From the NCBI GenBank assembly GCA_000091205.1, contig AP006496.2: a DNA stretch of 64,000 bases, one strand, 5' to 3'. A program made the translations under genes and the position numbers. How positions within the stretch are numbered: the first letter of the stretch is position 1; each line of letters begins with the position of its first letter. The notes beneath the pieces are model-generated. The model did no database searches. It was given only the letters and a program-made list of their open reading frames with translations, and was not told where the DNA came from. Below, piece after piece: positions 3,301-62,386 of the stretch. Source of the DNA: Cyanidioschyzon merolae. Its lineage: Eukaryota.

Positions 3301-3830
3301 CGTCGTTCGAGTGTAAAAGGCGGTGGTGGCCTGGACGCTCGGACTCGTCGTCGGTGAGCACCAGACGTTTCCGAACAGTAGCCGAACAGTAGCCGAGCGG
3401 TTCCAAAGCACTGCACCAGTTGCCACAGGAGCGACGCCCAGGCACACGACCGGGTCTCGGGAAACGCTGCAGTTGCTGGTGTACGAGCCGGTGCGTACCC
3501 GCCGAGAACGAGCAGGTCATCTTGCGCTGTGATCCCGGCACTCGAAGTGCATTCAGGTCCAGGCAGCTATTACCTCCTGTGCCTGCACGCGCAGTATCGC
3601 CGTCGGAGCGTACGCACTGTCAAGCACGTCAAACGTTCAAAGAGCTAGCTAGTCGGCGAGTAGTTTACCTTCTTCAATCAAGCGCGGAGCAGCAGCGGCA
3701 GCGTCGAGCGCCTGCCTTTGACAGCGGCCTGTCCGCAGTCGACTGTACACGCCTAACCGCTGCCCCTGGTGACCCCCGAGGCGGGACACTTTGGTGATTC
3801 CCGGGCCGGCCGTACTCCCACGGACCTAAA

Positions 3831-22358: not shown

Positions 22359-24592
22359 GATTGGCCTATTAAGTGGTATATGAAATCACATAAGTGCGTT
22401 TCCTAGCTATAGAAGACAGCGAGTGACTTCTATTCTCCAGTAGCGTCCAAAGTGACGAGACAACCAAAAGCCGCTTTCGTCCACTGCACAAGCAGAAAGC
22501 GCTCCGCACTCCCAAACACAACACGCCAGGAAAACGCTGGATCTTGACCTGTCCCTCCAAAAAGAGAGCAGACTGGTCCGAATAGACGAGGTTCCCTCCG
22601 TGAAAACTCTAACGCCCTGTCTAAACTGGATTGAAGCAGGAAAACGCCAAGGTCTGGAGAAGGCGTCAGTGAATAAACCGTCGCCGTCGTAACTTGGTAT
22701 CCTTTCGATCGGTTGCATACCTGATTTACGCCACGTATTACGCATCGATGGTCGTCTGTTGATTTCGCGGGGCCGCTCGAGGGGACTGCTCGTGCGTCCC
22801 CGTTCGCGGGGTCTGGGTGCCCAGATCCCCGGGGCGGTACCCGCACCGGCGCGGGGACGCGTCCCCATCCGACGGGAACGGGCGTCGCGTATGCCCTACG
22901 TTTCGAATCGAATGGTGCAACGACGCGGAGGCGGTTCCATCCGCAGCCAATGAAACGCCGCCATGATCGCACGGCCGTGGTCTATGGAACGTTCTTCGTA
23001 ACCAAAAAAGAGAAATCGTCGTGCGGAAAAAAACAAAAAAAAAAACAACAAAACAGACTAGTCGCAAACTATTTATGAAAGAACAACTATCTTAAAGACC
23101 CACACACCACGCGCGCCCATGGGGTCTAGTTTTTCCGAAGAAGCTCTGAAAGTGGGTTAAACCGGGGTGCTTGGGCGACGACGAAGCAAGCCCACGACAC
23201 GGACCTTGACCGCAACGAACGGAGGGGCGGAGGCAGTGGCAGCAGATTATATTGACGAGAATTTTGAGTAGTTATCCGCTGCTCCCGAAACAACGCTGCA
23301 GGTTCGTGCACAAATCTTGGACCCATCCTCGAACTCGGGCTCAGGAGTACCTCCTACCATGGGTACCTGCCTAAACTTTGGAAACAGTCTCGGCGGATAC
23401 TTTGGAAGACGGCTGGCGGTATGTTCGCGGTCGAAGCTGGAGTAAGCGACTTGCCCGCCTATGTGTTTGGGCAGCGGATACGTAGCCACTGAAAGGGTGG
23501 TTTGCAGACTGTTCCCAGTGGTTGAGGGGAGGTTAAAGCGTCGGGTAATATAAGGGTCGCATTCGAATCGACCTTGACTAACGTACTTCTGATTCTACGC
23601 CAGCGCTGCGGCAAGCACTCAATGAACGACTGGAATGCGGGAGGCGCTGGTGGCATGTGCGCTCACACACCCCGTGGAGGCTGCGTCTAAATCGACGTTC
23701 CACGCGAAAGGTCCAGCGAATCGGATGCGCACACGGGCTCAGTGCGCTTTCCGCGCCTACCAACTGTTGGGTGTCAAGCACAAACCCGCATTGCCAACCG
23801 ACAACAACGCATTCCATGCATGGTCACGAAGGAGAGAGGCATCTCCTAGGATATATCCTAACAACCAAGTGTCTCCAGCGTGTCGTGCAGCGAAGGCAAG
23901 CCTCCATCCGCAGACTGTCCGAGCACAAAGAGACGACGAGACCCGATTCTACGGCGGGTGAACCACGCCTCGAGCCGACGCCCTCTGTGGTAATGCAACG
24001 CCGTTCTATCTCCGTGATGCATCTGCACCAATGGTAAGGACGCTACTGCGGACAATTAGGGCAGGCATCAGGCACAAGGTAGAACGAATGAAACGACCAG
24101 AATATACAAGAAGAGGTGCAGGCAATGTAACTTGGAAGTAGAGAGTTTCATGGATACCTCACCGCGCATTGGAAAAAACATACAAAAAAGAATGAAAAGG
24201 AAAAGCGTAAAATCGGAGAATGCTGGCACAAGTAAACGTATCGTCCATGAAAAAAAGAATCGCGCTCGGTGAGCGCTCCTCGGAGATCGGCCAGTCAACT
24301 GACAAGCTGCGCGTGGCGTTGTTGAAGGGAAACGCGATCCTGACCAGGAGCGTGCTGTTCTACCGGAAAAAAAGGTAGATTTCCGTTGATGTCATAACCA
24401 AGTACAGTTTTTCAATTCGTTTTTGTTTCAAACTTCAAACAAGTCTAGTCAAGTGTTTTTCGCAGTATATAACAGAAGGGTTCAAAGAGCGTTGTTTTTC
24501 AAAAAAAAACAAAAAAAGGAAAGCTATGAAAAAGCAAGTCCACGATCCCGGAGGCCCGGGGTCGCAGGCTGCCAGAAAAAAACAAAAAAACA

Positions 24593-25375
24593 GTGCCGAG
24601 TCCAGAAGAAAAGGAAGAGAGAAAGAAGAAGGACAGAAAGGGGGAGGTCCTACTTCGAAGGCGGCAAGAAAGACGGCTGTACGACGAGAAGGTGGTGAAA
24701 ACCTTCCTTCTTGGACATATCAAGGATTCCTACAGGGAAAAGTTGCGAGACGCTATCGAAAAACGTGTCGACTCGCACACCAAGAGTATTGTGAAGGCGT
24801 CGTCAGGACTGATGCATTTAGCGAGGGAGATGTATCGCGACGTGACGCAAATGGAAACGGTCGAGATTCCGGACGATTTTTTCGACAAGACCTTTCTTCG
24901 TCAGCTGATGCTTGGGACAGGTGAATCGCGGAGGGAAACTCAGCTAGGGCATGCCCTCCACGAAAACTTCGCGGAATTCCACTTCGAGGGTAATCGATAC
25001 AGGGGTGACTGGCGTATTTACAAATATAGGGCAATGAAGTACCTCACGAACCTGAAGAACTATTTGACAACGAACCTCGAACGTTTCGTGATACGCGCCG
25101 TGGTTGCACTCTACCCGGGCCTGTCTCGCAAAAGAATATGGGCCATCATCGATGGTATCACGAAAGATCGCAAGCATGAAGATGAGGTCGAATTTGTCGA
25201 CAAGAAGGCGTCAAAAGTGAGAACGAATGAAGCTTCTCTGATCCGTGCGGCTATTCAAGAGCACCGTGCAGTCTTAGGGCTGGTGACTCCAACAGACAAG
25301 ATATCAGAGTTGAAAAAAGATAAGGAAAGATACTATCGCCTCGTCCTGCGGTACCTCGTGTTTCTGGACCGATAG
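24593..25375 (+). pseudogene. Copy A, N-terminal segment of the Fanzor-like protein (lysine-rich NLS-like start, then a helical region); ends at a TAG where the copy at 47323..47763 has GAG
   Basis: Aligns along its length with 59161..60318(-) (the MKKQVDDPGGPGS...ERFMIRAVFALYPGLSRK region). Here LDR*LERKAEM versus [11 protein letters not shown] in copy 5. Confidence 0.65.
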
Positions 25376-26090
25376 CTCGAACGCAAGGCGGAGATGAAGC
25401 TGAGAGGCGAAAAAATGAAGAGTGGGAGAGACGGAAGGCTGTCCTAATGGGTAAGCGCTTCAACGGCGTTCCAGTGTGCAACCTCAAGTCACATTTTGTG
25501 AGTATCGACTCCAGAGTCCTTGACGCCGCATGAAAGAGATCAGTCCCGAGTTCGATGTTAGCAGGGAGGAGTTCTCCGGCGAAAACCGGGAGACCCACTG
25601 GAAGAATATCTTCGATTTCAAACGTCTGAGAGTGAGCAAGCAAACGGTATTCACTGGTTTGATCGAAACCGATGGAGTAGCCTTGTGTGTACACTATCGG
25701 CGGTTGAAGAAAGATCGGCCAGTTCCGCCCTCGGCTGCGCCCGTGACGAAGGATGGAGAAAAGGAGGAGTCGGATCCTGCGATGCAGGAGGTGGAGGATA
25801 ACGACTTTGTCGTTGACGTGGCGAAGGATGAAGATGAGAAGGAGGCGGATCCCACGACGCAGGAGGTGCAAGATAATGACCTTGTCGTCGACGCTGCGAG
25901 GCATGAAGATGAGAAGAAGGCGGATCCTGTGATGCAGGAGGTAGAGGATGACAACCTTGTCGTTGACGCGGCGGAGCATGAAGAAAACAAGAAGGCGGGT
26001 TCTGAGAAGCAGAAAGTGCAGGAAAACGACTTTGTCGTTGATGTGACGAAGCATGAAGTTGAGAAGGAGGCGGAACCTGCGACGTAGGAG

Positions 26091-26981
26091 GTGGAGGGTA
26101 ACGACTTTATCGTTGACGCGGCGAAGAATGAAGAAAAGAAGGCGGCGGGTCCTGTGACGCAGAAAGTGCATGAGAATGACTTTGTCGTTGGCGCAGACCC
26201 TGGAAACACAAATATCATAACCATCGCTGCACCGAAGCGTGCGGAACTTGGTATTGACGGCAACTTGCGTCAGAAAGACATGCGTCTTTTGGGGTTCTCG
26301 AGAGCGAGATACTATCGAGAATCGGGAATGATGAATGCGAGGAAGAAAATTGAGACTTGGAATTCAGGAATGAAGGATCACCTGGAAGCCTTGAGCGAGG
26401 TCATGAGCCGGGGAGCGGACTTTCGGGCTTTTCGGGAATTCATGGAAGTTCGTGTTACCCATTGGGATGCGCTGTGGGAGGAGTATACCAAGCTCCGGTG
26501 GGCTCGTTTGCGTAAGAATCTATACGGTGGGAAACAGCGGGCGTTTGCCAACTTTTTCAGTCAGTTGAGTGCCTTGAAGGAGGATGAGAGTCAGAGGCTG
26601 GTAGTGGCATACGGAGCAGGGCGCTGGGCGCCCAAGAAAGGCACTGCGCCAGCTCCAACGACAAGATCATACAAGGAGTGCGCATGGCGTTTCGTCACGA
26701 TACCTGTAGATGAGTTTCGAACGTCCTATACACACCATGAACTGGGGTGTACACTGCAGAGAGTGGAGATTGAAAAGTGTCAGCGGAGTCCTGAGGAAAT
26801 AGCAAAGTACGGACCGCTGACGGAAGAGCAAATGGGAAGGAAGGCGAAAGTGCGAGGGCTACATGCACTAGGGAGTACAACTCACAACGGCAAGAAACGG
26901 ATGGAATTCTTGAACCGAGACTTTAACGTCGCTATGAATATACGGAGATGTGCGGTGCTGGAGACGAGACCTCCAGCGTAG
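26091..26981 (+). pseudogene. Copy A, RuvC nuclease segment of the Fanzor/TnpB-like protein
   Basis: [15 protein letters not shown] (RuvC-I Asp), RAFANFFSQLSALKEDESQRLVVAYGAGRW (RuvC-II region), FRTSYTHHELGCTLQRVEIEKCQRS (ZnF-like), KKRMEFLNRDFNVAMNIRRC (RuvC-III, RD.N.A.NI). It is preceded by a TAG that aligns with CAG (Gln) in the repeat consensus. Confidence 0.7.
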
Positions 26982-27166
26982 ACATGAGAGAACTTTGCTG
27001 GACAGCCTCTGAAAGTTGAACTATATGAGAACAAGTTGTAAGCAGTAGTGGGTGGCCGGTCCAAAAAGTCTGGGAGGCGTCTACACGTCAGTTAAAGATT
27101 TTTTGTCGAGGGCGCGGTTGCCGCCACTACTTTTTCTGCCGACCGCAGCGCAATTAAAACTACTCT

Positions 27167-29259: not shown

Positions 29260-29830
29260 TGTAACTAAAGTAGCACACGAGCGTGCGGCAGACATTTTTC
29301 GGACGACAAAACGTTTAGATTGACCATGCATCCCAGAATTCGGGACGGATAATGGCTTTCGGGAAAGCGTCCATCGTGAAGCACCTACCTTCAGGTTCCA
29401 TTACCCATACTTCCTCTCGGATATACTTGTCGTTTCGTATGTTCTATCGTGCGCCAAGTGCCTGCAGTGAGCACCCGCCATAGCGCTTATATACCGCTGA
29501 AGCAGATGCTGCACGGAGACAGAACGGCTTTGCCATACCACTGAGGGCGTCGATTCGATGCTTGGTTCATCCGACACGGGATCGGAGTACTTAATCATTA
29601 TGAAAGCCTGCGAAAGCGCGAACCGATCTACGAGGAGTTCACTGCGACCAGGGTGACGCCCAGACGCAGCATACGCGCTCCTTGTCCCAGAATGAATTGC
29701 GTTGCAGACGAGCTGCGCAGGTCTCGCCATACTACCTGCCACTGGAGAAAGCATGAAGCACTAGCCGCGCAGACTCGTCCGGCTCACTGGATCTTCCGCC
29801 TAGAAGGTAAACTTTCGAAGATACGGAAAA
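29260..29830 (-). repeat. Solo copy of the transposon 5' module (variant X'), in inverse orientation to the adjacent truncated copy 3
   Basis: The minus strand reads taccttctaggcggaagatccagtgagccgg...atcgacgccctcagtggtatggcaaagccgttctgtctccgtgcagc...gatggacgctttcccgaaagcc. This matches the 5' module of copy 6 (61135 downward) and the module at 47964-48400. Confidence 0.5.
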
Positions 29831-29984
29831 TTTTCCCCATTTCAGTGCTTACTATCAAGGTAGAAAGAAACTGTTATCGAGTTGCCTGTCAGAGGTTAGT
29901 TTCTGTTCTTTTCTCTCTGGGAGAATGCTCGCTGCTCACGGGCGGACACAATTAGAGGGCAAGCCTGTGTGAGGAAGTTGGTAA

Positions 29985-30876
29985 CGAGGGCAACTTATGT
30001 CAGAAAGACATGCGTGTTTTGAAGTTCTCGAGAGCGAGATATTACCGAGAATCGGAAATAATGAATGCGAGGAAACAAAGTGAGGTGTGCAACGCAGGAA
30101 TGAGGGAGCATCTGAAAGCGATCCACCAAGTGACAAGCCGTGGGGCGGACTTTAAAGCTTTCCGGGAGTTCATGCAAGTTCGCGTGGCTCATGACGAGAC
30201 GCTGTGAAAAGAGTATACCAAGCCCCGGTGGGCTGGTCTGCGTATGAGCTTGTATTGTGGGAAGCGGCGTGCATTCGCGAATTTTTTCAATGAGTTGAGC
30301 GCCCTAAAGGAGGATGAAAGTCAGAGGCTTGTAGTAGCGCACGGAGCAGGGCGCTGGAAGACTCAAAAAGGGACTACGCCAGCTCCAACGACACGAACGT
30401 TCAAGGAGTGCGCACGGCGTTTTGTTACGATACCGATAGATGAGTTTCGAACATCGTATACAAACCATGAACTGGGGTGCACACTTCAAAGGGTCGAGAT
30501 GGAAAAGCGTCGGAGGAGCCCTGATGATATACGAAAGTACGGAGCGCTGACGGAAGAGCAAATGGAAAGGAGAGCGAAAGTTCGAGGACTAGGTGCACTA
30601 GTAAGTACAACTACCAACGGGAAGAAACGGATGGAGTTCGTGAACCGAGATTTTGACGCAGCAATCTATATAAGGAGATATGCGGTGATGGAAAGAAGAC
30701 CTCCAGAGTTGAGAAGAGAGAACTTTGTGGGGCAACCTCTCAACGTGGAATTATATGAGAAAAAGTTGAAACCAGTAGTAGGTGGCCAGTCCAAAAAAAT
30801 GCTGGGAGACGTCTGAACGTCAGTTGGAGACTTTTTGTCTAGGGCGCGTTTGCCACTACTGGACACTGCCGGCGAC
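29985..30876 (+). mobile_element. 5'-truncated Fanzor/TnpB-like transposon fragment (copy 3): RuvC C-terminal half plus conserved 3' tail
   Basis: ORF 30010..30207 ([25 protein letters not shown]) and ORF 30244..30816 (KRRAFANFFNELSALKEDESQRLVVAHGAGRW...FRTSYTNHELGCTLQRVEMEKRRRS...KKRMEFVNRDFDAAIYIRRY). Tail ...gtctgaacgtcagttggagactttttgtctagggcgcgtttgccactactggacactgccggcg. Confidence 0.7.
30244..30816 (+). pseudogene. Copy 3, RuvC-II/ZnF/RuvC-III segment of the Fanzor/TnpB-like protein
   Basis: See copy 3. RuvC-III NRDFDAAIYIRR. Confidence 0.65.
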
Positions 30877-31243
30877 AACGTTTTTCTTTTGAAAGGCGTT
30901 TGTTGTCCCAGCCGTCGCTCCGAGTGACCTCCAGCAGCACCAGCTCGGAAACCTCGCTCTATTTTCGACGCTACTCTATCAAAATATTCTTATCACAAAA
31001 TCGATCGTCTCCGAGGAAGTTGGGAAACGCAAAACGCTTCGCTAGAGTCGGGCTATCGTGGGGCGATAGTACCAGATGCGGCTTTTCCTACTGATTCTGA
31101 ATCGGGCGCTTCAAGGTGCTTCGGCACTGCTTCCGTTGCGTCATTGGGGACACGACACCAAACGCCCGGGTCAGTTCTTGCTCTTCGCGCTTCACTCGTG
31201 CGCTGTTCAGTCCACAGATGACGCACCATCAACGACCTCTTCA

Positions 31244-34642: not shown

Positions 34643-37330
34643 GAACGCCGGCAGTGTAGAGGATTGGCGAGTGACCTGCCCCAGACGAAACGTCTCCAAC
34701 TGACGTGCCGACGCCTCCGCGTCGATTTGGACCGGCCACCCACTACTGCTTTCAACTTCTTCTCATATAGTTCCACTTTGAGCGGTTATCCAACAAAGCC
34801 CTCTCGTGTCAACTCCGGGCGTCTTCGTTCCACCAGCGCATATCGCCTTAGATAGATAGCGGCGTCAAAGTCTCGGTTCACGAATTCCATCCGTTTCTTG
34901 CCATTGATTGCATACGCCAGTGCAAGCAATCCACGAACTTTTGCCCTCCTTTCCATTTGCTCCTCCGTCAGCGCTCGGTACTTTTTTATATTCTCAGGGC
35001 TCCGCTGACACTTTTCCATCTCCACTCTCTGAAGTGCACACCCCGGTTCGTGGTGTGTATACATTGTTCGGAACTCGTCTACAGGCATCGTAACAATACG
35101 CCGTGCGCACTCCTTGCACGCTCTCGTTGTTGGAGCTGGCGTAGTTCCTTTTTTGGACGCCCAGCGCCCTGCCGCATACGCTCCTACGAGCCTCTGACTC
35201 GCGTCCTATTTGAGGGCGCTCAACTCATTGAAAACGTTCGCGAATGCCCGCTGCCTCCCACAGTATAGATTCATTCGCAAACAATCACACCGGGGCTTGG
35301 TATACTCCTCCCACAGCGCATCCCAATGGGCAACATGAACTTCCATGAATTTCCGAAAAGCTCGAAAGTCCGCTCCCCGGCTCATGACCTCGCTCAAGGC
35401 TTCCAGGTGATCCTTCATTCCTGAATTCCAAGTCTCGATTTTCTTCCTTTTATCATTGTACCGGATTCGCGGTAGTATCTCGCTCGCGAGAATCTCAAGA
35501 GACGCATGTCTTTCTTACGTAAGTTACCGTCAGTACCGTCTTCCGCACGTCTGGGTGCAGCAATGGTGATGATATTCGTATTGCCAGGGTCCGCGCCAAC
35601 GACAAAGTCGTTATCCTGCACTTTCTGCGTGGCAGGATCCGCCTCCTTCTTTTCTTTCTCCTTCGTCATGTCAACGACAAGGTCGTTATCCTCCACCTCC
35701 TGCGTCGCAAGACCCGCCTCCTTCTTTTCTTCATGCTTCGTCGTGCCAACGACAAGGTCGTCATCCTGCATTTTCTGTGTCAAAGGATCCGCCTCCTTCT
35801 CATCTTCATCCTTCGCCACGTCAACGACAAAGTCGTTATCCTCCACCTCCTGCATCGCAGGATCCGACTCCTCCTTTTCTCCATCCTTCGTCACGGGCGC
35901 AGCCGAGGGCGGAACTGGCCGATCTTTCTTCAACCGCCGATAGTGTACACACAAGGCTACTCCATCGGTTTCGATCAACCCAGTGAATACCGTTTGCTTG
36001 CTCACTCTCAGACGTTTGAAATCGAAGATATTCTTCCAGTGGGTCTCCCGGTTTTCGCCGGAGAACTCCTCCCTGCTAACATCGAACTCGGGACTGATCT
36101 CTTTCATGCGGCGTCAAGGACTCTGGAGTCGATACTCACAAAATGTGACTTGAGGTTGCACACTGGAACGCCGTTGAAGCGCTTCCCCATTAGGACAGCC
36201 TTCCGTCTCTCCCACTCTTCATTTTTTCGCCTCTCAGCTTCATCTCCGCCTTGCGTTCGAGTTCTAGATCCAAAAACAAGAAATAGCGCAGAATGTGGCG
36301 ATACCATCTTTCCTTATCTTTTTTCAACTCTGATATCTTTTCTATTGGGTTCGCCAACCCCAGAACCGCACGGCGCTCTTGAATAGCCGCGCGGATTATA
36401 GAATCTTCATTCGTGCTCTCTTTTGACACCTTCTTGTCAACGAATTCGACCTCATTTTCACGCTTGCAATCGTTCGTGATGCCACTGATAATCACCCATT
36501 TTCCTTTGCGAGACAGGCCCGTGTAGAGCGCAAACACGGCGCGTATCATAAAACGTTCCAGGGTCATTGTAGAATGGTTCTTCAGATTCTTGAGGTATTT
36601 CATCGCTCCGTGTGTGTAAATATCCCGGTCACCCTTGTATCGAGTACCGTTGAAGCTCTAGAAGGGGTATGTTTTTGTGGAGGGCATGCACTAGCTCATT
36701 TTCCCGCCGCGCTTCCCCTGTACAAAGCGTCAGGCGTCGAATAAAGGTCATGTGGAAAAACCAGTCCGGAACCTCGCCTATTTTGATGTCCGTAACGTCA
36801 TCGTACATCTCCCTCGCCGCATGCATCAGTTCTAAAAAAGCCTTACGAACAGTCCTGGATTACAATTCGACACTGTTTCTGATGGCCTCTTGCAACTTTT
36901 GCCTGCACGGATCCTTGATGTGGCGTAGAAAACAGGCTTTCATCATCCTCTCATCTTACTGGTGTCTCACTTCTAGCTCCTTCTCGCCATGCCATGCCGT
37001 ACTCGTGCATGGAACAAGGCCCCCAGCGATTGTAGACGCTCCGAAAGCAGCATCGCGTGTTTCTAAGCATGTCAAGTTATGGCCTGGATCGCGTTTCCCA
37101 GCAACGGCGAGATGCGCGTTTTGTCCGGTTGTTGCCAGATCTCCAGGCGCCAAGAACAAGACACTTCGACGGACAGCGCATCGCAACGACGATTCCGCGC
37201 TCGATGCATCAACGGCGACGAGAACAGCAGCTGCGGCGGCGGCGGAGGCGGCGCGACGGCGACACAGCGCGATCGGCTCAGATGGTTAATACGAGCTGCA
37301 GGATCAATTCTGACAAGTTGAAGGGAACAC
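34643..37330 (-). mobile_element. Fanzor/TnpB-like transposon copy 4 (internal deletion of the N-terminal NLS region, 1-nt frameshift; 3' half near-identical to copy 5)
   Basis: Minus-strand ORFs 36629..36826, 36190..36603 (N-terminal segment), 35415..36107 (acidic repeats plus Ruv[19 protein letters not shown]), 35206..35418, 34786..35088 (ZnF/RuvC-III: FRTMYTHHEPGCALQRVEMEKCQRS...KKRMEFVNRDFDAAIYLRRY). Tail ends at about 34643 (revcomp ...cgccaatcctctacactgccggcgttcaa). Confidence 0.7.
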
Positions 37331-45668: not shown

Positions 45669-45932
45669 TTTATCCGCGGTGCACTGCGTTCGGAACACAC
45701 ACGAGCTAGAGAAACGTGATCCGCCAAGCGTGCAAAGTTAATCGACGCCACGAGCCTGCGCAGCGACGTTGCAAATAAGGCTTTTCGACTAAAAACAAAA
45801 ACAGGAAACGTATTATACAAGATATAGAAAAACAGAAGCCGACGGAGGGTGCACCGTCGACGTACCGAGCTCAAGATTCCAGCGCACGATCGCATCTCGC
45901 GAATCTTGTCACCACCGCCTATCTAAAGACGC

Positions 45933-47830
45933 GTCGCCGGCGGTGCGCAGTACTGGTGGCGAACGCGCCTTAGACAAATCGTCTCCAACTGACGTGCCGA
46001 CGCCTCCGCGTCTATTTGGACCGGCCACCCACTACTGCTTTCAACTTCTTCTCATATAGTTCCACTTTGAGCGGTTATCCAACAAAGCCCTCTCGTGTCA
46101 ACTCCGGGCGTCTTCGTTCCACCAGCGCATATCGCCTTAGATAGATAGCGGCGTCAAAGTCTCGGTTCACGAATTCCATCCGTCTCTTGCCATTGATTGT
46201 ATACGCCAGTGCAAGCAATCCACGAACTTTTGCCCTCCTTTCCATTTGCTCCTCCGTCAGCGCTCGGTACTTTTTTATATTCTCAGGGCTCCGCTGACAC
46301 TTTTCCATCTCCACTCTCTGAAGTGCACACCCCGGTTCGTGGTGTGTATACATTGTTCGGAACTCGTCTACAGGCATCGTAACAATACGCCGTGCGCACT
46401 CCTTGCACGCTCTCTTTGTTGGAGATGGCGTCATTCCTTTTTTGGACGCCAAGCGCCCTGCCGCATACGCTCCTACGAGCCTCTGACTCGCGTCCTATTT
46501 GAGGGCGCTCAACTCATTGAAAACGTTCGCGAATGCCCGCTGCCTCCCACAGTATAGATTCATTCGCAAACAATCACACCGGGGCTTGGTATACTCCTCC
46601 CACAGCGCATCCCAATGGGCAACATGAACTTCCATGAATTTCCGAAAAGCTCGAAAGTCCGCTCCCCGGCTCATGACCTCGCTCAAGGCTTCCAGGTGAT
46701 CTTTCATTCCTGAATTCCAAGTCTCGATTTTCTTCCTTTTATCATTATACCGGATTCGCGGTAGTATCTCGCTCTCGAGAATCTCAAGAGACGCATGTCT
46801 TTCTTACGTAAGTTACCGTCAGTACCGTCTTCCGCACGTCTGGGTGCAGCAATGGTGATGATCTTCGTATTGCCAGGGTCCGCGCCAACGACAAAGTCGT
46901 TATCCTGCACTTTCTGCGTGGCAGGATCCGCCTCCTTCTTTTCTTCCTCCTTCGTCATGTCAACGACAAGGTCGTTATCCTCCACCTCCTGCGTCGCAAG
47001 ACCCGCCTCCTTCTCATCTTCCTGCTTCGACGCGCCATCGACAAGGTCGTTATGCTGCACTTTCTGTTCTGTGTGGCAGGATCCTCCTCAATGTTTTCTT
47101 CATCCTTCGTCACGGACGCAGCCGAGGGATGGACTGGCCGATCTTTCTTCAACCGCCGATAGTGTATACACAAGGCTACTCCATCGGTTTCGATCAACCC
47201 AGTGAATACCGTTTGCTTGCTCACTCTCAGACGTTTGGAATCGAAGATATTCTTCCAGTGGGTCTCCAGGTTTTCGCCGGTGAAGTCCTCCCTGCTAACA
47301 TCGAACTCGGGACTGATCTCTTTCATGCGGCGTCAAGGACTCTGGAGTCGATACTCACAAAATGTGACTTGAGGTTGCACATTGGAACGCCGTTGAAGCG
47401 CTTCCCCATTAGGAAATCCTTCCGTCTCTCCCACTCTTCATTTGCCTCTTCACTCAGCTTCATTTCTGCCTTGCGTTCGAGCTCTCGGTCCAGAAACGCG
47501 AGGTACCGCAGGACGAGGCGATAGTATCTTTCCTTATCTTCTTTCAACTCTGATATCTTGTCTGTCGAATCCGCCAACCCCAGAACCGCAGGGCGCTCTT
47601 GAATAGCCGCGCGGATTACAGAATCTTCATTCGTGCTCTCGTTTGACGACCTCTTGTCAAAGAATTCAATCTTATCTTCATGCTTACGATGGTTCGTGAT
47701 GCCGTTGATAATCGCCCATAGCCACTTGCAAGAGATACCCTGGGTACAGTGCAAACACGGCACGTATCATAAAACGCTCCAGGTTCACGATCATATGATT
47801 CTTCAGATTCGTGATGTGCGTACTCGGCCT
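45933..47830 (-). mobile_element. Fanzor/TnpB-like transposon copy 5 (5'-truncated within the N-terminal protein; multiple frameshifts; 3' half about 98-99% identical to copy 4)
   Basis: Minus-strand ORFs 47323..47763, 46955..47326, 46704..47060 ([17 protein letters not shown]), 46495..46707, 46075..46452 (FRTMYTHHEPGCALQRVEMEKCQRS...NRDFDAAIYLRRY). Tail ends at about 45933 (revcomp ...ccaccagtactgcgcaccgccggcgac). Confidence 0.7.
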
Positions 47831-47963
47831 GTCACAATTTACTCTGGCATTAAGAGCGGGCGGCCTGCGTCATGGCGTCGCCCTGGTCCTAACAGACTCC
47901 TAGCACGTCGCTTCACGCTGTTGCAGGCAGCAGATCTGGCTGCCCAGTTGTCAGGCTCCCAGA

Positions 47964-48400
47964 ATGATTACGTATTCCGACTCCGTATCAGGTGAAACCT
48001 TCCTCGATACGACGCCCTCAGTGGTATCGCAAAGCCGTTCTGTGTCCGTTCAGCATTGGCATCAGCGCTACAGGCGCTTTCGCTGGAGCTCAAATCAGAC
48101 ACTCGGGGCACAACAGGACGTACAAAACTACCGGTGTATCCAAAATGATGCATTAGTAATGGGCTTTGATGGTAGATGCGTCATGATGGACGCTTTTTCG
48201 ACTACCAATATCCATCTCGCCGGCTGAGATCCCCGGTCAATGTAAACGAATTTCGCCATCGAAAGAGAATCGATCGCAGCGCCCTGCGGATGCCGCCCCC
48301 CTCCCCTGCGAAATAACATCCAGACAAACATTACGTCTTTTCCCTTCAAAGGGAACACTGGTCCAAGATGCCGACCCTATGCTGATCGCAGAGCAAGCGT
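47964..48400 (+). repeat. Transposon 5' module (variant X') adjacent to copy 5 but in the opposite orientation; terminal palindrome ttcccttcaaagggaa
   Basis: The plus strand reads cgatacgacgccctcagtggtatcgcaaagccgttctgtgtccgttcagc...gatggacgctttttcgactacc...cttttcccttcaaagggaacactgg. It is homologous to 29260-29830(-) and to the 5' modules of copies A and 6. It abuts the start of the nucleotide-sugar transporter gene. Confidence 0.5.
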
Positions 48401-48415
48401 CGAAGGTCTTTGCAT

Positions 48416-51819: not shown

Positions 51820-52017
51820 CTAGACAGCGTCACATCTTACCCTATGGCGTTCCGTGGGCGTCTTTAGGTCTGATAAGGAATGTCTTAAAAGGAATGCGTA
51901 TTGGTCGTTTGGTCCATGCGTCTCCAGAAGCAGGTTATTCGCCCGAAGTACCAGCAGCGCTTCGTTTTCAGCGCAGCAGCAGCAGCAGAAGCAGAAGCAG
52001 AAGCAGAAGCACTGCAG

Positions 52018-52245: not shown

Positions 52246-52557
52246 TGGTGTCGAGCGCTCGTTGCTCCGAACAGCGCGCGCATCCCGATAGCAGCCACTG
52301 CACGCGCACAACGAGGAAACTGTTGTCTAGGCGCTTCGGATACGCCGCTTACTAGCCGCACTGATACCTCTGCAGTGTCTGACTGAATAGCCGAACCATC
52401 ACCGATACGGATTCGGTGTCTACTGTGCGACGTATGCCAAACAGGCCGTCGCTCATCGGCCCTGAAAAAAAGACGACACAAATCTTTTGCCGAATACTCT
52501 GGGCGGGGAGCAAACACAAGTCCCGCTGCTCGCACTCGGAGACACTACCAGGCCTTC

Positions 52558-57873: not shown

Positions 57874-57963
57874 ACGCGTGCCCGCTTGAGACGACCCGCA
57901 CCATCAACGCCGCTCGAAAGTCGAACGGCGCCAACGGTGTACAGTAGTGGCGGCAACCGCGCC

Positions 57964-58908
57964 CTAGACGAGACGTCTCCAACGGGCGTGCAGACGCCTC
58001 CCAGTTTGTTTGAACCGGAAACCCACTACTGCTTCCAACTTCTTCTCATATTGTCCCACTTTAAGAGGTTGTCCAAGAAAATTCTCTCGTGTCCACTCTG
58101 GAGGTCTTTTCTCCAGGACCGCACATTTCCTTGTATTGATGGCGGCATTCAAATCTCGGTTCACAAACTCCATCCGTTTCTTCCCATTGGTAGTTGTACT
58201 TCCTAGTGCACCTAGTCCTCGCACTTTCACTCTCCTTTCCATTTGCTCTTCCGTCAGCGGTCCGTACTTTTTCATATCCTCAGGGCTCCGTTGGCACGTT
58301 TCCATCTCGACCCTCTGAAGTATACACCCCAGTTCATGGTATGTATAGGACGTTCGGAACTCACCTACAGGTAGTGTAACAAACCGGTGTGCGCACTCCT
58401 TGTACGTTCTTGTCGTTGGAGCTGGTGTACACAATTTTTGGGTCTTCCATCGCCCCGCCCCATACGCTGCTACGAGCCTCTGACTTTCATCCTCCTTCAG
58501 GGCGCTCAACTGATTGAAAAAGTTGGCAAACGCCCGCTGCTTCCCACAATACAAATTCATTCGGAAACGAGCCCACCGGGGCTTGGTATACTCCTCCCAC
58601 GGCGCATCCCAATGGGCAACATGAACTTTCATGAATTTCCGAAAAGCTTCAAAGTCCGCTCCTCGGCTCGCCACCTCGCTCAAAGCTTCTAGGTCATCCT
58701 TCATTCCTGAATTCCGGCTCTCGATTTTCTCCCTCGCATTCATTATACCCGATTCTCGATTGTATCTCGCTATCGAGAACCTCAATAGACGCATGTCTTT
58801 CCGACGTAAACTACCGTCAGTACCATCTTCCGCACACTTCGGTGCTGCGATGGTGATGATATTTGTGTTTCCGGGGTCCGCGCCAACGACAAAGTCGTTA
58901 TCGTGCAC
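57964..58908 (-). pseudogene. Copy 6, RuvC-I/II/ZnF/RuvC-III segment of the Fanzor/TnpB-like nuclease
   Basis: [21 protein letters not shown]; KQRAFANFFNQLSALKEDESQRLVAAYGAGRW; FRTSYTYHELGCILQRVEMETCQRS; KKRMEFVNRDLNAAINTRKCAVLEKRP. Confidence 0.7.
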
Positions 58909-59160
58909 TTTCTACGTCACAGGGCCCGCCTCCTTCTTTTCTTCATGCATCACCGCGTCAACGACAAGCACGTTATCCTCCACCTCCTGCGTCTCAGGAC
59001 CCGCCTGCTTCTTTTCTTCATGCATCGCCGCGTTAACGACAAGGTCGTTATGTTGCACTTTCTGTGTGGCAGGATCCGCCTCCTCCTTTTCTTTATCCAT
59101 TGTCACGGGCACACCCGAGGGCGGGACTAAACGATCTGCCTTCAAACGCCGATTGTGTAC

Positions 59161-60318
59161 TCACGTGGCTACTCCATCAGTTTCGATCAACCCAGTAAAT
59201 ACCGTTTGCTTGCTCACTCTCAGACGTTTGAAATCGAAGATATTCTTCCAGTACGTCTCCCGGTTTTCGCCGGAGAGTTCCTCACTGTTGAAATTAAACT
59301 CGGGACTGATCTCCTTCATGATGCCGTAAAGGACGCCTGAATCGATACTCACCAAATGTGACTTGAGGTTGCACATTGGAACACCGTTGAAGCGCTTCCC
59401 CATTAGGAAAGCCTTCCGTCTCCCCCACTCTTCAGTGTTTTCCTCACTCAGCTTTATCTCCGCCTTGCGTCCAAGTTCTAGATCCAGAAACAAGAAATAG
59501 CGAAGAATGAGGCGATAGTGTCTTTCCTTATCTTTTTTCAACTCTGATATCTTTTCTGCTGGACTCGGCAGCCCCAGTACCCCACGGCGCTCTTGAATAG
59601 CCGCACGGATGACAGAAGTTTTACACCTTCTCCTGCGTGACGCCTTCTCTCCGACGAATTCGATCTCATCTTCATGCTTGTGATCGTTCGTGATGCCATT
59701 GATAATCGACCATACTCCTTTGCGAGACAGGCCCGGGTACAGCGCAAACACGGCGCGTATCATGAAACGTTCGAGGTTCATCGTCAAATGGTTCCTCAGG
59801 TTCGTGAGGTAATTCATTGCCCCGTGTTCGTAAATATCCCGGTTACCAATGTATCGAGTGCCCTCGAAGCGGAATTCCGCGAAGTTTTCGTGGAGGGCGT
59901 GTACCCGCTCATTTTCCCTCCGCGTTTCCCTTGCGCCGAGCATCAAGTGACGAACAAAGATATTGTCGAAAAACTCGTCTGGAATCTCGACTGTTTCCAT
60001 GTGCGTCACATCGCGATACATCTCCCTCGCCATACGCATCAGTCCTGAAGACGCCCTGACAATACTCTTGGAGTACGAATCGAGACGTTTTTTGATAGCG
60101 TCTCGCAACTTTTCCCTGTACGGATCCTTGATATGTTCAAGAAGACCGGCTTTCACCACCATATCGTCGTACAGTTGTCTTTCTTTCCGCCTTCGACGTA
60201 GGGCCTCTCCCCTTTGCTTCTTCTTCTCTTCCTTTTCTACTCGACTCGGCACTGTTTTTTGTTTTTTTCTAGCAGCCGGCGACCCTGGGCCTCCAGGATC
60301 GTCGACTTGCTTTTTCAT
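59161..60318 (-). pseudogene. Copy 6, N-terminal segment of the Fanzor-like protein (NLS-rich; putative REC/WED-equivalent region)
   Basis: 385 aa. KK/RR-rich first 50 aa. Conserved with copy A ORF 24593..25375 plus 25530.. (MKEISPEF...[22 protein letters not shown]). Confidence 0.65.
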
Positions 60319-62386
60319 AGGTTTCCTTTTTTTTTAGTTTTTTGAAAAAGAACGCTCTTTGAACCCTTATGTAATATACTGCGAACAAACACTTGACTAG
60401 ACTTATTTGAGGGTGAAACACAAATGAACTCAAAAACTGTACTTTGCTACGACTTTAACGCAAATAAAACTTGTACAGTAGAGCAGTGCGCTCCTGATCA
60501 GGATCGCGTTTCCCTTCAATGGCGACATGCGCGTCGTGTCAGGTGACTGCCTGATCTCCCGGGTGCGCTCACCGAGCGCGATTTTTAGAATGGACAAAAC
60601 GTTTCCTTGTGCCAGCGTTCTCCGATTGTGCGCATTTTTCTTTTCTTTCTCTCTTTTTGTGTTTTTTTCAGTGCGCGGTGAGGTATCCATCAACCCCCTA
60701 CCTCCATGTTACATTACCGATACTTCATCGCGGATATTCTGGTCGTTTCATACGTCCTATGATGTGTGCCTAGTACCTGCCGTGCCGTACCCGCCTTTGG
60801 ACCTTAACAGCTGGGGCAGATAGTTCATAGAGACAGAACGGCTTTTCCATACCACAGAGGGCGCCGGCTCGAGGCGTGGTTTACCCGACGTAGAATTGGG
60901 TGTCGCCGTCAGTTTGTGCTCAGACAGTCTGCGGATGCAGGTTTGTCTTCGCTGCACGAAACGCTGGAGACACTTGGCTGTTAGGATATATCGTGGGAGC
61001 CGCCTCTCTCTTTCGTGATCATGCATGGAATGCGTTGTTGTCGGTTGGCAATGTGGCTTCGTGCTTGACACCCACCCACCACTGTGGGTAGGCGCAGAAA
61101 GCACTGGGCCCGTGTGCGCATCCGATTCGCTAGACCTTCCGCCTAGAAGGTAGCATGTGAGTTTCTTCGCCACTAATGAGCGCTGAGGCTCGGTTAGCGG
61201 ACCATAAGTTGCCAGTGCTACACTCAGAGTGAGTGTCCGGTCTTCGACTATCACGATGATGCCCAGCTGCTGGTGTCCTCCAAGGAGCTCGCTGCGCTCC
61301 TGCTTCCAGCGCGGGCACTGTAAGCCTAAATATGTCAGCGTCTCGGGGATCTCGTCTCGACAGCAGGGACAGTGTGATTCCCAGTGCGATTCCAGTGTTC
61401 CTATACGGCTTAGAGACGGTGCTGGTAGCCAGAAGCCACCAACGCGGATTTTGGCGAGCCACTGGGTACCTCGAGCAAGTCCCGGGAATTCCAGCGCCTC
61501 CTACCAGTGCCTGCATGTGTATGCTAGGTTGTAGTTCCGGTATAGAGTCAAGCCGGCGTTAAGGGCGCGACTGGTACCGTGTCTACGTTCCCATATTGTT
61601 GTTTGGACCGTTCGCTTCAGGCGGTGGGAGCCTTCTACATTTCTGGGGAACGATTCGAGCGCATTTTCGCCTAAGAGGCGCTTCAACCAAATATGCGTCC
61701 ATTTCATCCTTCTTGCGACGCACCTACCGGTACCGAGTACGTCTCGAGCCTCGTACGCGCTACCGCGGCATATGCCGACCTGCCTCTCTCTCTTCAGTGC
61801 AGAGCGGAGGACTCGACGCTGGACCTCTTAACGACACCGAAAGGCGCTGCTGTTGCTTCTGGGGAAGCACCCGCGACTATCCGTCCAACGGTCCGTACCA
61901 GAGACGTTTGGCACTAGCCCCTAGCGCACTGACAGCTTCGTGCTGCTTGCCGGGTTCGTTATTCGGGCTGCCGAGCGTTTCGGGACGGTAGTCACAGCGA
62001 GCGCCTCCGCTGAGGCAGTTTCACGCTCTTGGGGAAGGGGCGCGCACTTTGCAGGTCGCCAACGTGTCCAGCGTCAAGCCCAACGACTGAACTGCCGTCG
62101 ACTGAGTCGCACACGTACACATGCTCACTGGGACATCAGCGCCTTTCGCCGCTTTGGACTGAGGCTTTGGCGGCGTTTACTACCCGAGTCGGAGAAAAGT
62201 GCGGCGGGTCCGTGAATACTGGGCGGTTTATTGCAGCACTTGACCAGGGAGAAGGGTTGCAGTGAACAGCAGCACGCTACGACTACTGCGCAAAGCTGTT
62301 CGCGCGCGTCTGGTAGCGCTTCCAAGTTGTGTCGAGCGCAGCATAGGCACGAAGCAACGACCCCAAAACGGACGCCCTGAACCTGC

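What the first reader, a model, noticed from the sequence alone, without database searches (positions are those of the whole stretch)
47964..48400. Transposon 5' module occurs in both orientations relative to the element body, and once as a solo copy
A conserved 5' module starts taccttctaggcggaag and contains the block gacgccctc(t/a)gtggta(t/a)(g/c)gcaa(a/c)gccgttct(g/a)t(c/g)tcc. In copies A (23690-24520, +) and 6 (60320-61135, -) it lies 5' of the N-terminal ORF in the same orientation as the ORFs. At 47964-48400 it is on the + strand although the adjacent copy 5 is on the - strand. At 29260-29830 it is on the - strand although the adjacent truncated copy 3 is on the + strand. These two inverted copies share a variant downstream sequence (gatggacgcttt(c/t)(c/t)cga...gtcaat(c/g)taaacg...) and a palindromic end ttccctt(c)aaagggaa. 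The module also contains a small conserved ORF-like stretch (...CQPTTTHSMH.HE.ER...RRLSEHK....P.ST.G.PRLEP.PSVV) that may be coding or structural RNA. Several explanations are possible. The 5' region could be invertible or recombinogenic. It could be a separate non-autonomous element that the Fanzor element targets. It could simply reflect head-to-head nested insertions.
Basis: seen in the sequence. Interest (0 to 1): 0.5.

Follow-up and report, generated by a model that had tools for sequence, protein, structure and literature searches.

The report
LINE tail beside Fanzor gene copies

Summary
The 37-nt core occurs four times at the stated places and strands; a fifth, diverged copy (216-644) was missed. 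The window is C. merolae 10D. The element is the published Fanzor1 family CMe-1, and the module is the published 635-bp repeat TE-N2_CMe. The published CMe-1A consensus already carries it inverted (Bao & Jurka 2013, class "unknown").

New here:
- In copies A and c6 the module is not a transposon 5' end. It is the ORF2 C-terminal tail plus 3'UTR of a non-LTR retrotransposon, with reverse transcriptase about 2.9 kb upstream in related loci.
- m3 (29295-29962, -) and m5 (~47810-48270, +) are TE-N2-type copies with the family's fixed A-rich 3' end and their own 5' truncation points. Solo copies elsewhere have 9-13 bp target-site duplications.
- Fanzor bodies are likewise anchored at the 3' end and truncated at the 5' end.
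- Head-to-head joins recur at five or more independent sites with different breakpoints. This fits twin or dual priming during target-primed reverse transcription (inferred, not shown).

No inverted-repeat boundaries or orientation polymorphism support an invertible switch. A retrotransposon-borne, endonuclease-deleted LINE carrying Fanzor appears unreported.

The parts
216..860 (-). Strongly diverged TE-N2-type module, inverted relative to Fanzor body c0. Together with c0 it forms a CMe-1A-type composite. The right-hand limit is approximate.
   Evidence: Window 216-3302 aligns as one BLAST segment to CMe-1A consensus 37-3145 at 71.7%. On its own, 216-644 matches CMe-1A 37-467 at 66%, E=2e-19, and the m consensus in minus orientation, E=3e-12.
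860..3329 (+). Fanzor1 (CMe-1) body c0, degenerate. Its 3' end is ...AAAAGGCGGTGGTGG.
   Evidence: tblastn with the CMe-1 protein gives 43-72% identity.
23040..23697 (+). 5' end of the full-length LINE (5'UTR and start; begins ACAACAAAA). In copy A an internal deletion joins it directly to the module.
   Evidence: 86% identical to L061 1460-2117. L061 and the window share the same start but have different upstream flanks.
23695..24257 (+). Module in copy A, same orientation as the Fanzor ORF (c-type). It comprises the ORF2 tail and 3'UTR, with the core block at 23977-24013.
24258..27131 (+). Fanzor1 body of copy A (ATG at 24526), degenerate, with 75-bp tandem repeats inside the ORF. The 3' terminus is aberrant.
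29295..29962 (-). m3, a TE-N2_CMe-type LINE-tail copy. Its family-typical A-rich 3' end is at 29295 and the core is at 29515-29551. The usual family 5' start is at 29912. A further 50 bp (to ~29962) is homologous to the ORF2 zinc-knuckle region and is shared with locus L022.
   Evidence: 88% identical to the m consensus q9-653 and 80% to CMe-1A 2-636. The 5' extension is shown.
29967..30906 (+). c3, a Fanzor1 body 5'-truncated at c6 position q2334 (CMe-1A 2239). Its 3' end is intact (...GAAAGGCGTTTGTTGT). It abuts m3 head-to-head.
34646..37141 (-). c4, a Fanzor1 body reaching CMe-1A position ~671 with internal deletions. It lacks the terminal hairpin, and no module is detectable next to it.
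45909..47817 (-). c5, a Fanzor1 body 5'-truncated at c6 position q1361 (CMe-1A 1414), with an intact 3' end and tail (...GATAGGCGGTGGTGA).
47810..48270 (+). m5 (the finding), a TE-N2_CMe-type LINE-tail copy. It is 5'-truncated at m consensus position ~194-221. The core is at 48011-48047 and the family-typical 3' end ...CGCCATCGAAAGAGAAT ends at 48270. It abuts c5 head-to-head with no spacer. The host triose-phosphate-transporter-family gene starts at 48417.
   Evidence: The flank 48272-48420 is unique. Pfam TPT hit.
57899..60581 (-). Fanzor1 body of copy c6 (ATG at 60318; 73% identical to the CMe-1 protein over residues 1-734; in-frame stop). The 3' hairpin-like end and GT-rich tail end at 57899.
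60582..61245 (-). Module in copy c6, same orientation as the Fanzor ORF. The core is at 60829-60865. An internal copy of the LINE 3'-end motif TTTTGTCCATTCTAAAAA lies at 60599-60582.
61246..61717 (-). LINE ORF2 C-terminal coding region of c6 (CPCC..HL..QCPRW zinc-knuckle motif). c6 is 5'-truncated at 61717.
   Evidence: Nine loci share homology up to 61709-61717, and others continue further upstream.

Best explanation
**Identity (shown).** The window is Cyanidioschyzon merolae 10D. The 'transposon' is the Fanzor1 family CMe-1. The 'module' is the repeat published as TE-N2_CMe.

**What the module is (shown).** It is the 3' part of a non-LTR (LINE-type) retrotransposon: the last part of ORF2 after its zinc knuckle, plus the 3'UTR, ending in ...AAACGTTTTGTCATC(T)GAAAA with a short A-rich tail.

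**Two forms in the genome (shown).**
1. TE-N2-type copies carry the tail only. They have a fixed 3' end and a series of 5' truncation points. The better-preserved solo copies have 9-13 bp target-site duplications.
2. A LINE lineage has a Fanzor1 gene and a second LINE-like 3' end lying downstream of the module. In copies A and c6 the module therefore sits 'upstream' of the Fanzor ORF in the same orientation. These Fanzor-containing units also keep their 3' end and are cut off at variable 5' positions.

**What m3 and m5 are (shown).** They are TE-N2-type copies, each with its own 3' end and its own 5' breakpoint. Each is joined directly, 5' end to 5' end, to a separately 5'-truncated Fanzor body.

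**How the pairs arose (inferred).** Both units were probably reverse-transcribed from their 3' ends at the two staggered nicks of one target site. This could be twin priming on one LINE-Fanzor RNA or dual priming on two RNAs. The two cDNAs were then joined in the middle. One such product, a full TE-N2 plus a Fanzor body starting just after the module, later amplified as a unit. That product is the published CMe-1A consensus, and c0 in this window is a copy of it.

The module is not an invertible DNA switch.
For: **Organism and family**
- The window's E2 protein is 100% identical over 486 aa to C. merolae 10D XP_005537198.1.
- The CMe-1 protein matches c6 at 73% over residues 1-734 and the other copies at 72-88%.
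- The published CMe-1A consensus begins CGATGACAAAACGTTTACATTGACC, which is the reverse complement of the module's 3' end. m3 matches CMe-1A 2-636 at 80% and m5 matches 1-423 at 77%.

**The module is a separate unit**
- 61 metagenome loci (about 19 sites) carry the core. About 13 of these sites lack an adjacent same-orientation Fanzor body.
- The 3' end is fixed at m consensus q652-661. The 5' ends fall at q3-9, 83, 151, 221, 339 and 389.
- Target-site duplications: ATCACGAGCTGCG (13/13), TCGACATA[T/C]GCTG (12/13) and TACATGGCG (9/9). Respectively 0, 0 and 4 of 300 shuffles reach these scores. A fourth, ATCGATACGTGTA, was read from the alignment.

**LINE context**
- c6-type copies continue upstream through about 3.4 kb.
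- Three consecutive ORF fragments hit RVT_1, covering profile positions 6-194. One search adds a further hit.
- The nearest relatives are ORF2 proteins with Exo_endo_phos and RVT_1, and homology runs up to their C-terminal region.
- At least 6 distinct copies have ORF2, module and Fanzor contiguous.
- Two independent copies share the 5' start ACAACAAAA but have different flanks.

**3' anchoring of the Fanzor units**
- 5' ends fall at c6 positions -546, -497, 298/299, 847, 901, 1037, 1361, 2334 and 3031. All have the same 3' end and variable GT-rich tails.

**Head-to-head joins**
- Four junctions with 0 bp spacer or a 6-9 bp apparent overlap.
- A fifth junction in L014, between an inverted Fanzor body and a near-full-length LINE.
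- In the CMe-1A type, the inverted segment ends at about c6 q590 and the direct segment starts at q573-581. These are adjacent positions of one RNA, as twin priming predicts.
- Two CMe-1A-type copies with different flanks share the same junction.
- Twin and dual priming are defined in PMC2837659.

**Orientation is stable.** The same orientation is seen in all orthologous contigs.
Against: - No target-site duplication could be found around Fanzor-containing copies. Around the composites, c5-m5 shares an 8-mer, CGATCGCA, but it lies 14 nt from the tail and 9 of 300 shuffles match it. The other three composites are at chance. The single-event origin is therefore unproven. All these copies are old, about 72-88% identical to the consensus.
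- For c5-m5, c3-m3 and L003, 0.4-1.7 kb of RNA between the two segments is missing. This is more than is usual for classical twin priming (my knowledge), so dual priming or a later deletion has to be invoked.
- The apparent junction microhomologies rest on diverged sequence and are soft.
- Every RT copy seen is degenerate. The window itself holds only the two ends of the LINE part (23040-23697 and 61246-61717). The RT evidence comes from related metagenome contigs.
- How the CMe-1A composite is transcribed and copied as a unit is not explained.
- The TnpB/Fanzor nature of the ORF rests on the published classification and on motifs. Pfam, NCBIfam and PDB sequence searches were negative, and the structure model failed.
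Confidence: 0.7

Rival explanations
1. The pairs arose from two unrelated, sequential insertions, possibly with an associated deletion. One element landed next to or inside the other, and the head-to-head arrangement reflects repeat clustering, a target preference or chance.
For: The window's repeats are clustered in lower-GC stretches. No duplication brackets the composites. The partners differ in divergence from their consensus sequences: m5 is about 76% and c5 about 85%.
Against: Five independent pairs are all 5'-to-5' with no spacer, and none is 3'-to-3' or abutting in tandem at a new junction. The far sides carry host genes (an MFS transporter gene and a TPT-family gene), not the missing halves of a split element. 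Simple nesting is therefore excluded, and each pair would need an extra deletion ending exactly at the junction.
Confidence: 0.15
2. c5-m5 (and L003) are not independent events. They are internal-deletion derivatives of the amplified CMe-1A-type composite (full inverted TE-N2 plus full Fanzor body), having lost sequence on both sides of the original junction.
For: CMe-1A-type composites exist and have amplified: c0, L025/L051 and L065 share the same junction with different flanks. In c5-m5 and L003 both partners are shorter than in CMe-1A, as a deletion spanning the junction would produce. Internal deletions do occur in the family, as in copy A and L046.
Against: This cannot explain c3-m3, where the module extends 50 bp beyond the CMe-1A junction into ORF2 sequence that CMe-1A lacks. 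It also cannot explain the L014 pair. m5 is no closer to the CMe-1A module (77%) than to the general m consensus (76%).
Confidence: 0.2
3. The module is an invertible or recombinogenic segment of the Fanzor element, flipped by site-specific or homologous recombination.
For: Both orientations exist relative to the Fanzor ORF. In the CMe-1A type the inverted segment corresponds almost exactly to the module of the same-orientation type.
Against: No inverted repeats bound the module. No recombinase was seen in the elements. No orientation polymorphism appears among 5-6 contigs per locus. The breakpoints differ at every locus. The inverted modules belong to a different sequence subfamily and carry the retroposon 3' end with A-rich tails.
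Confidence: 0.02
4. CMe-1A and TE-N2_CMe are DNA transposons (IS200/IS605-, Helitron- or Replitron-like). They share one terminal region, and TE-N2 is the non-autonomous partner mobilised through that shared end.
For: Fanzor/TnpB genes are otherwise known from DNA transposons (PMC3627910, PMC13565253). The Fanzor units show no detectable duplications.
Against: TE-N2 copies have 9-13 bp duplications of variable sequence and length, A-rich tails, a one-sided truncation series and no terminal inverted repeats. The module is collinear with, and in the sense orientation of, an RT ORF2. TE-N2 shares nothing with the other end of CMe-1A except a short 3'-end-like motif.
Confidence: 0.05

Closest known systems
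CMe-1A and TE-N2_CMe of Cyanidioschyzon merolae (Bao & Jurka 2013, Mob DNA 4:12, PMC3627910)
   Same: Same genome, same Fanzor1 protein family and same 635-bp repeat. The published 3169-bp consensus already has TE-N2 inverted at its 5' end. Copy c0 and loci L025/L051 and L065 have that exact junction.
   Different: The paper reports no terminal inverted repeats, undetermined target-site duplications and 'TE classification unknown', and does not discuss orientation. Here TE-N2 is identified as a LINE 3' tail with duplications. Copies A and c6 show the opposite (collinear) arrangement inside an RT-bearing element. m3/c3 and m5/c5 have junctions different from the consensus.
Twin priming and dual priming of LINE-1 (Ostertag & Kazazian 2001, from my knowledge; Meyer et al. 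2010, PMC2837659)
   Same: Two fragments, each 3'-anchored and 5'-truncated, joined 5'-to-5' in inverted orientation, and recurring at many sites with different breakpoints. In the CMe-1A type the two segments are adjacent and overlapping in the source RNA.
   Different: Bracketing duplications were not demonstrable. In three pairs 0.4-1.7 kb is missing between the segments. The inverted partner always ends at a genuine element 3' end rather than at an arbitrary internal site. One product then became a proliferating family.
LINE/SINE partnerships that share a 3' tail, and LINE 3' transduction or chimeric retrocopies made by template switching (my knowledge; U6/L1 chimeras in PMC6789731)
   Same: A short non-autonomous unit (TE-N2) consists of the partner LINE's 3' end. 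A foreign gene (Fanzor) is carried downstream of the LINE body, followed by a second copy of the 3'-end motif.
   Different: TE-N2 has no tRNA, 5S or 7SL head. The cargo is a TnpB-family nuclease gene, and it is retained in a multi-copy lineage.
Fanzor/TnpB OMEGA elements in DNA transposons (Saito et al. 2023, PMC10432273; review PMC13565253)
   Same: A single large ORF of the Fanzor1 family, with a conserved non-coding 3' region running to the element end.
   Different: Known hosts are DNA transposons with inverted repeats or IS607-like elements. [quoted passage not shown] Here the gene is collinear with an RT ORF and shows retroposon-type copy anatomy.

Membership tests
CMe-1A / TE-N2_CMe (Bao & Jurka 2013) | Host genome is Cyanidioschyzon merolae | tested here: met
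   The E2 protein is 100% identical (486/486) to strain 10D XP_005537198.1, which sits on an 852,727-bp contig, the length of chromosome 14.
CMe-1A / TE-N2_CMe (Bao & Jurka 2013) | Encodes the CMe-1 Fanzor1 protein (734 aa) | tested here: met
   tblastn gives 73% for c6 over residues 1-734 and 72-88% for A, c3, c4 and c5 over the parts present. All copies are degenerate.
CMe-1A / TE-N2_CMe (Bao & Jurka 2013) | The module equals the TE-N2_CMe sequence (first 635 bp of the consensus) | tested here: met
   m3 matches CMe-1A 2-636 at 80%. m5 matches 1-423 at 77%. The c0 module matches 37-467 at 66%.
CMe-1A / TE-N2_CMe (Bao & Jurka 2013) | The consensus junction: full inverted TE-N2 joined to the Fanzor 5'UTR at consensus position ~640 | tested here: not met
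   For the two copies in the finding the junctions differ: c3-m3 is at CMe-1A 2239 and c5-m5 at 1414. The consensus junction is met only by c0 in the window and by L025/L051 and L065.
Non-LTR (LINE-type) retrotransposon and its 5'-truncated copies | A reverse transcriptase ORF collinear with the repeat | tested here: met
   RVT_1 hits lie on fragments upstream of the module in L014, L061, L065 and L066. Homology to ORF2 proteins runs from the post-endonuclease linker to the C-terminal zinc-knuckle region. The window holds only the flanking parts of this region.
Non-LTR (LINE-type) retrotransposon and its 5'-truncated copies | Fixed 3' end with variable 5' truncation | tested here: met
   TE-N2 type. 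Fanzor-containing units.
Non-LTR (LINE-type) retrotransposon and its 5'-truncated copies | Target-site duplications of variable length and sequence | tested here: inconclusive
   Met for four solo TE-N2-type copies, at 9-13 bp. Not detectable for Fanzor-containing copies or composites.
Non-LTR (LINE-type) retrotransposon and its 5'-truncated copies | A-rich or simple-repeat 3' tail | tested here: met
   TE-N2 tails are A-rich and of variable length. Fanzor-unit tails are variable (TTG/GTG)-like runs after ...GGCG.
Non-LTR (LINE-type) retrotransposon and its 5'-truncated copies | An endonuclease domain (APE type) in ORF2 | tested here: not met
   Three independent copies have no Exo_endo_phos hit. 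Only about 35 N-terminal residues of the domain remain. The nearest relatives do have the domain. The lineage looks endonuclease-deleted, and an autonomous partner was not searched for.
Twin / dual priming product | Two inverted, 3'-anchored, 5'-truncated segments joined directly | tested here: met
Twin / dual priming product | One pair of target-site duplications bracketing the whole composite | tested here: inconclusive
   c5-m5 shares an 8-mer that is offset by 14 nt, with 9 of 300 shuffles matching it. The other composites are at chance.
Twin / dual priming product | The segments derive from adjacent positions of one RNA (classical twin priming) | tested here: inconclusive
   Met for the CMe-1A-type junction (q573-581 against ~q590). 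Not met for c3-m3, c5-m5 and L003, where the gaps are 0.4-1.7 kb.
Site-specific invertible DNA segment | Inverted-repeat boundaries and both orientations present at one locus | tested here: not met
   No bounding inverted repeats. A single orientation in all orthologous contigs.
Fanzor/TnpB OMEGA system | RuvC-type nuclease fold and a 3' guide RNA reaching past the element end | not testable with these tools
   Sequence searches against Pfam, NCBIfam and PDB were negative. The AlphaFold model was unusable, with pLDDT 32. The classification rests on PMC3627910 and on the motifs GADPGN, DEFRTS and NRDFNAAINI read in the translations. No RNA data are available.

The most novel reading that the evidence does not exclude
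The Fanzor1 family CMe-1 is not a passenger of a DNA transposon. It is part of a LINE lineage that has lost its own APE endonuclease domain. The RNA-guided Fanzor nuclease would then supply, in cis or in trans, the target-site break for reverse transcription, or would drive homing of the retroelement. That would amount to RNA-guided retrotransposition. The evidence does not exclude this: RT, module and Fanzor are collinear in six or more copies, the endonuclease domain is reduced to about 35 residues in all three copies that cover it, and Bao & Jurka report that Fanzor ORFs stay intact in some old copies.
Probability: 0.08. Interest if true: 0.95.

Novelty: new variant of a known kind. Interest (0 to 1): 0.55.

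Why it matters
- **It settles the finding.** The two-orientation pattern is ordinary retrotransposon anatomy, not a regulatory switch.
- **It classifies two repeats.** CMe-1A and TE-N2_CMe together make up roughly 5% of the C. merolae genome, and their published class has been 'unknown' since 2013.
- **It explains the published consensus.** That consensus begins with an inverted repeat because it is an inversion chimera that later amplified.
- **It touches an open question about Fanzor.** Current thinking ties Fanzor/TnpB to transposons that excise ('restorative homing'). [quoted passage not shown] A Fanzor1 gene spread by target-primed reverse transcription, inside a LINE that lacks its own endonuclease, is a counter-example that can be tested directly. 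C. merolae is genetically tractable and has a complete genome.

Tried and rejected
- **Known RNAs.** The tRNA scan and the Rfam scan of the whole window found nothing, so the core is not a known RNA or a tRNA-derived SINE head.
- **RNA structure.** RNAalifold on 20 diverse module copies gave -7.5 kcal/mol with a covariation term of -0.75. On 13 Fanzor-unit 3' ends it gave -0.6 kcal/mol. There is no support for a conserved structure. The terminal hairpins I drew by eye are in different registers in the two variants, so I make no claim from them.
- **Coding test of the 'small ORF'.** It is the continuation of the LINE ORF2 frame and stays open in most c-type copies. After position 61151 third codon positions are not more variable than the others, and the frame is broken in TE-N2-type copies. 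It is probably the ORF2 tail followed by 3'UTR, not a separate gene.
- **Protein identification by sequence and structure.** Pfam, NCBIfam, PDB phmmer and a PDB profile search were all negative. The AlphaFold2 model on 25 close homologues had pLDDT 32 and was unusable, so no fold search was run.
- **Target-site duplications.** None was found around Fanzor-containing copies. Around the composites none is convincing.
- **12-nt perfect inverted repeat (47586-47597 / 48278-48289).** It is a chance-level match with no extended homology.
- **Does m5 continue into Fanzor 5'UTR sequence (the 'palindrome' region)?** No significant similarity.
- **Fetching the strain 10D chromosomal retroelement.** The look-up through protein P0296 returned only short contigs.
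- **Host versus repeat divergence.** An apparent low identity of the host protein to its next-best hits briefly suggested horizontal transfer. It was resolved when the 10D protein turned out to be in the same 90% cluster and 100% identical.
Full report
**1. Checking the observation**

None was expected by chance.
- A self-comparison of the window shows six copies of one element:
  - c0: first seen as 1156-3328, +
  - A: 23695-27131, +
  - c3: 29967-30876, +
  - c4: 34645-36967, -
  - c5: 45910-47817, -
  - c6: 57902-61152, -
- The blocks at 29515 and 48011 lie on the strand opposite to the neighbouring c3 and c5. They resemble each other (29610-29297 against 47952-48264) more than they resemble the blocks in A and c6.
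- Three details fail:
  - The motif TACCTTCTAGGCGGAAG is in only two of the four copies and is not a boundary.
  - The 'palindromic end' occurs once only, at 48340-48355. It lies in unique flank about 70 bp past the end of the repeat.
  - No copy in the window is solo.

**2. Organism and published identity**

- The window's pyruvate dehydrogenase E2 is 100% identical to the C. merolae 10D protein, which sits on a contig the length of chromosome 14.
- Bao & Jurka (2013, PMC3627910) described the Fanzor1 family CMe-1A in this genome. It has a 3169-bp consensus and about 150 copies that are about 80% identical to the consensus. They found no terminal inverted repeats, could not determine duplications, and gave the class as unknown. 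They noted that its first 635 bp are 95% identical to another repeat, TE-N2_CMe, with about 70 copies.
The inverted arrangement is therefore already in the published consensus, although orientation is not discussed there.
- The 734-aa CMe-1 protein matches c6 at 73% over its full length and the other copies at 72-88%.
- The full consensus aligns to window 216-3302 as one segment. Copy c0 is thus a diverged CMe-1A-type composite. Its inverted module at 216-644 is significant on its own, at E=2e-19. This is a fifth module copy.

**3. The module is a unit of its own with retroposon anatomy**

- A scan of the metagenome collection for the core gave 61 loci, falling into about 19 distinct sites. 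Most carry the module without a same-orientation Fanzor body.
- Alignment of these copies and a 663-bp consensus show a fixed 3' end...TCTAAACGTTTTGTCATC(T)GAAAA, followed by a short variable A-rich tail.
- The 5' ends form a series at consensus positions 3-9 (seven or more sites), 83, 151, 221 (m5), 339 and 389.
- The better-preserved solo copies are flanked by direct repeats. ATCACGAGCTGCG (13/13), TCGACATA[T/C]GCTG (12/13) and TACATGGCG (9/9) were each tested against shuffles. ATCGATACGTGTA was read from the alignment.
- m3 has the usual start at 29912 plus 50 bp more. That extra stretch is shared with locus L022 and is homologous to the zinc-knuckle region of ORF2.

**4. In copies A and c6 the module is internal to a LINE**

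- Homology of c6 to other copies runs to 61717. Other copies continue upstream for about 2.9 kb (L061 1460-4367).
- This stretch encodes degenerate reverse transcriptase. RVT_1 hits fall on three consecutive fragments, with further hits.
- The closest full-length relatives in a 1.84-billion-protein library are ordinary ORF2 proteins with an APE endonuclease domain and an RT domain. They align from their post-endonuclease linker to their C-terminal zinc-knuckle region.
- The ORF2 frame, with the motif ...CPCC..ET..HL.LQCPRW..., runs into the module.
- The sequence just upstream of copy A (23040-23697) is the 5' end of the full-length LINE. It has the same start, ACAACAAAA, as in L061 but a different flank. 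Copy A is therefore an internally deleted full-length copy.
- At least six distinct copies have ORF2, module and Fanzor contiguous. Others end at the module with no Fanzor (L021/L030/L016, and the first copy in L065). In L046 the module is followed directly by only the last 235 bp of the Fanzor unit.

**5. Fanzor-containing units are also 3'-anchored**

- Their 5' ends fall at many positions (c6 numbering -546, -497, 298/299, 847, 901, 1037, 1361, 2334, 3031). All share one 3' end...ACACCGCYGGC, then about 25 nt resembling the TE-N2 end (AACGTTTTTCTTTTGAAAGGCG against AACGTTTTGTCATCTGAAAAG), then a variable GT-rich tail.
- No target-site duplications were detectable for these old copies.

**6. 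The head-to-head pairs**

- With local alignment to both references, the Fanzor body and the module meet with no spacer:
  - c5-m5: F q1361 / m q194-221
  - L003: F q1022-1037 / m q141-151
  - CMe-1A type: F q573-581 / m q3
  - c3-m3: F q2334, then the 50-bp extension of m3
- A fifth pair joins an inverted Fanzor body to a near-full-length LINE copy in L014.
- Two CMe-1A-type copies with different flanks share one junction and are 76% identical across it. With c0 that makes three, so this product amplified as a unit.
- In each pair both partners keep their 3' ends and lose their 5' parts. The far sides carry host genes, not the missing halves.
- This is the architecture expected from twin priming (one RNA) or dual priming (two RNAs on the two nicks), as defined for L1 (PMC2837659).
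- For the CMe-1A type the inverted and direct segments are adjacent and overlapping in a LINE-Fanzor RNA, the classical prediction. For the other three pairs 0.4-1.7 kb is missing, which fits dual priming or later deletion better.
- Duplications bracketing the composites could not be shown, so this step is inference.

**7. The invertible-switch idea fails**

- No inverted repeats bound either module.
- Every orthologous contig, 5-6 per locus from several metagenomes, has the same orientation and spacing.
- The breakpoints differ at each locus.
- The inverted modules belong to the TE-N2 subfamily rather than to the subfamily seen in A and c6.

**8. The 'small ORF' and the core block**

- The ORF is the tail of the ORF2 frame. 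It shows no codon-position signal after 61151 and is interrupted in TE-N2-type copies.
- There is no covariation support for a conserved RNA structure.
- The core block sits exactly at the 5' end of at least five independent copies (consensus position 389 or c6 q298). This points to an internal transcription start or a reverse-transcription stop. It remains unexplained.

**9. Novelty**

- The relation between CMe-1A and TE-N2_CMe is published. Their nature as LINE derivatives, the collinear RT-module-Fanzor lineage, and the reading of the consensus as an inversion chimera are not in the literature I could search.
- The three copies that cover the region upstream of RT have lost the APE endonuclease domain except for about 35 residues. 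Whether this only marks a non-autonomous lineage or hints at a role for the Fanzor nuclease is open.

Noticed in passing
L061 1460-3400; L014 187-1600; L066 1-1200 (related loci); window 23040-23697 is the start of the same region: The Fanzor-carrying LINE lineage lacks the APE endonuclease domain. Only about 35 N-terminal residues remain (GFASWNICGIASKLDDE...ELIQVEDC), followed by a Lys-rich stretch, in three independent copies. The nearest RT relatives have a complete Exo_endo_phos domain.
   Followed up: partly
window 216-860: A fifth, strongly diverged, inverted TE-N2-type module lies next to copy c0. This makes c0 a full CMe-1A-type composite.
   Followed up: yes
window 25742-26194, 35591-35895, 46880-47114, 58878-59107: There are 75-bp tandem repeats (25-aa units such as DNDFVVDAAKHEEEKKADPxxQEV) inside the Fanzor ORF, just before the GADPGN motif. 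Copy number differs between element copies, and the published consensus has a single unit.
   Followed up: no
L002/L043/L047/L048, L011/L060, L034/L045/L053/L059, L040, L054 (5' ends); core at window 48011 and elsewhere: At least five independent copies start exactly at CTCGAGCCGACGCCCTC, so the conserved core block is a hot spot for element 5' ends. The youngest-looking set (92% to the consensus) has a 9-bp target-site duplication. This could reflect an internal transcription start or a reverse-transcription stop.
   Followed up: partly
L046 2120-2934: A LINE copy in which the module end (q591) is followed directly by only the last 235 bp of the Fanzor unit (q3031-3265). It is either an internal deletion or a severely 5'-truncated Fanzor unit joined in tandem to the LINE tail.
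   Followed up: no
L014 3990-4290: A hybrid module. Its 5' part is of the type seen in A and c6, and its 3' part is TE-N2-like (it lacks the A-rich insertion). It continues into the Fanzor 5'UTR, showing that LINE-Fanzor copies with a TE-N2-type module end exist.
   Followed up: no
window 52017-52250: A 120-bp segment is tandemly duplicated at 98% identity inside the 1771-aa ORF (52558-57873, -), which has low-complexity runs and a helicase-like C-terminal part.
   Followed up: no
window 48270-48417: The 3' end of m5 lies 147 bp upstream of, and in the same orientation as, the start codon of a triose-phosphate-transporter-family gene. The retroposon tail may contribute to that gene's promoter or 5'UTR.
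   Followed up: no
proteins P0012, P0015 and others; L065 6936-7391: Some CMe-1-type proteins carry a precomputed weak hit to PF26935 (DUF8286). The local Pfam copy did not reproduce it at E<=0.1.
   Followed up: partly
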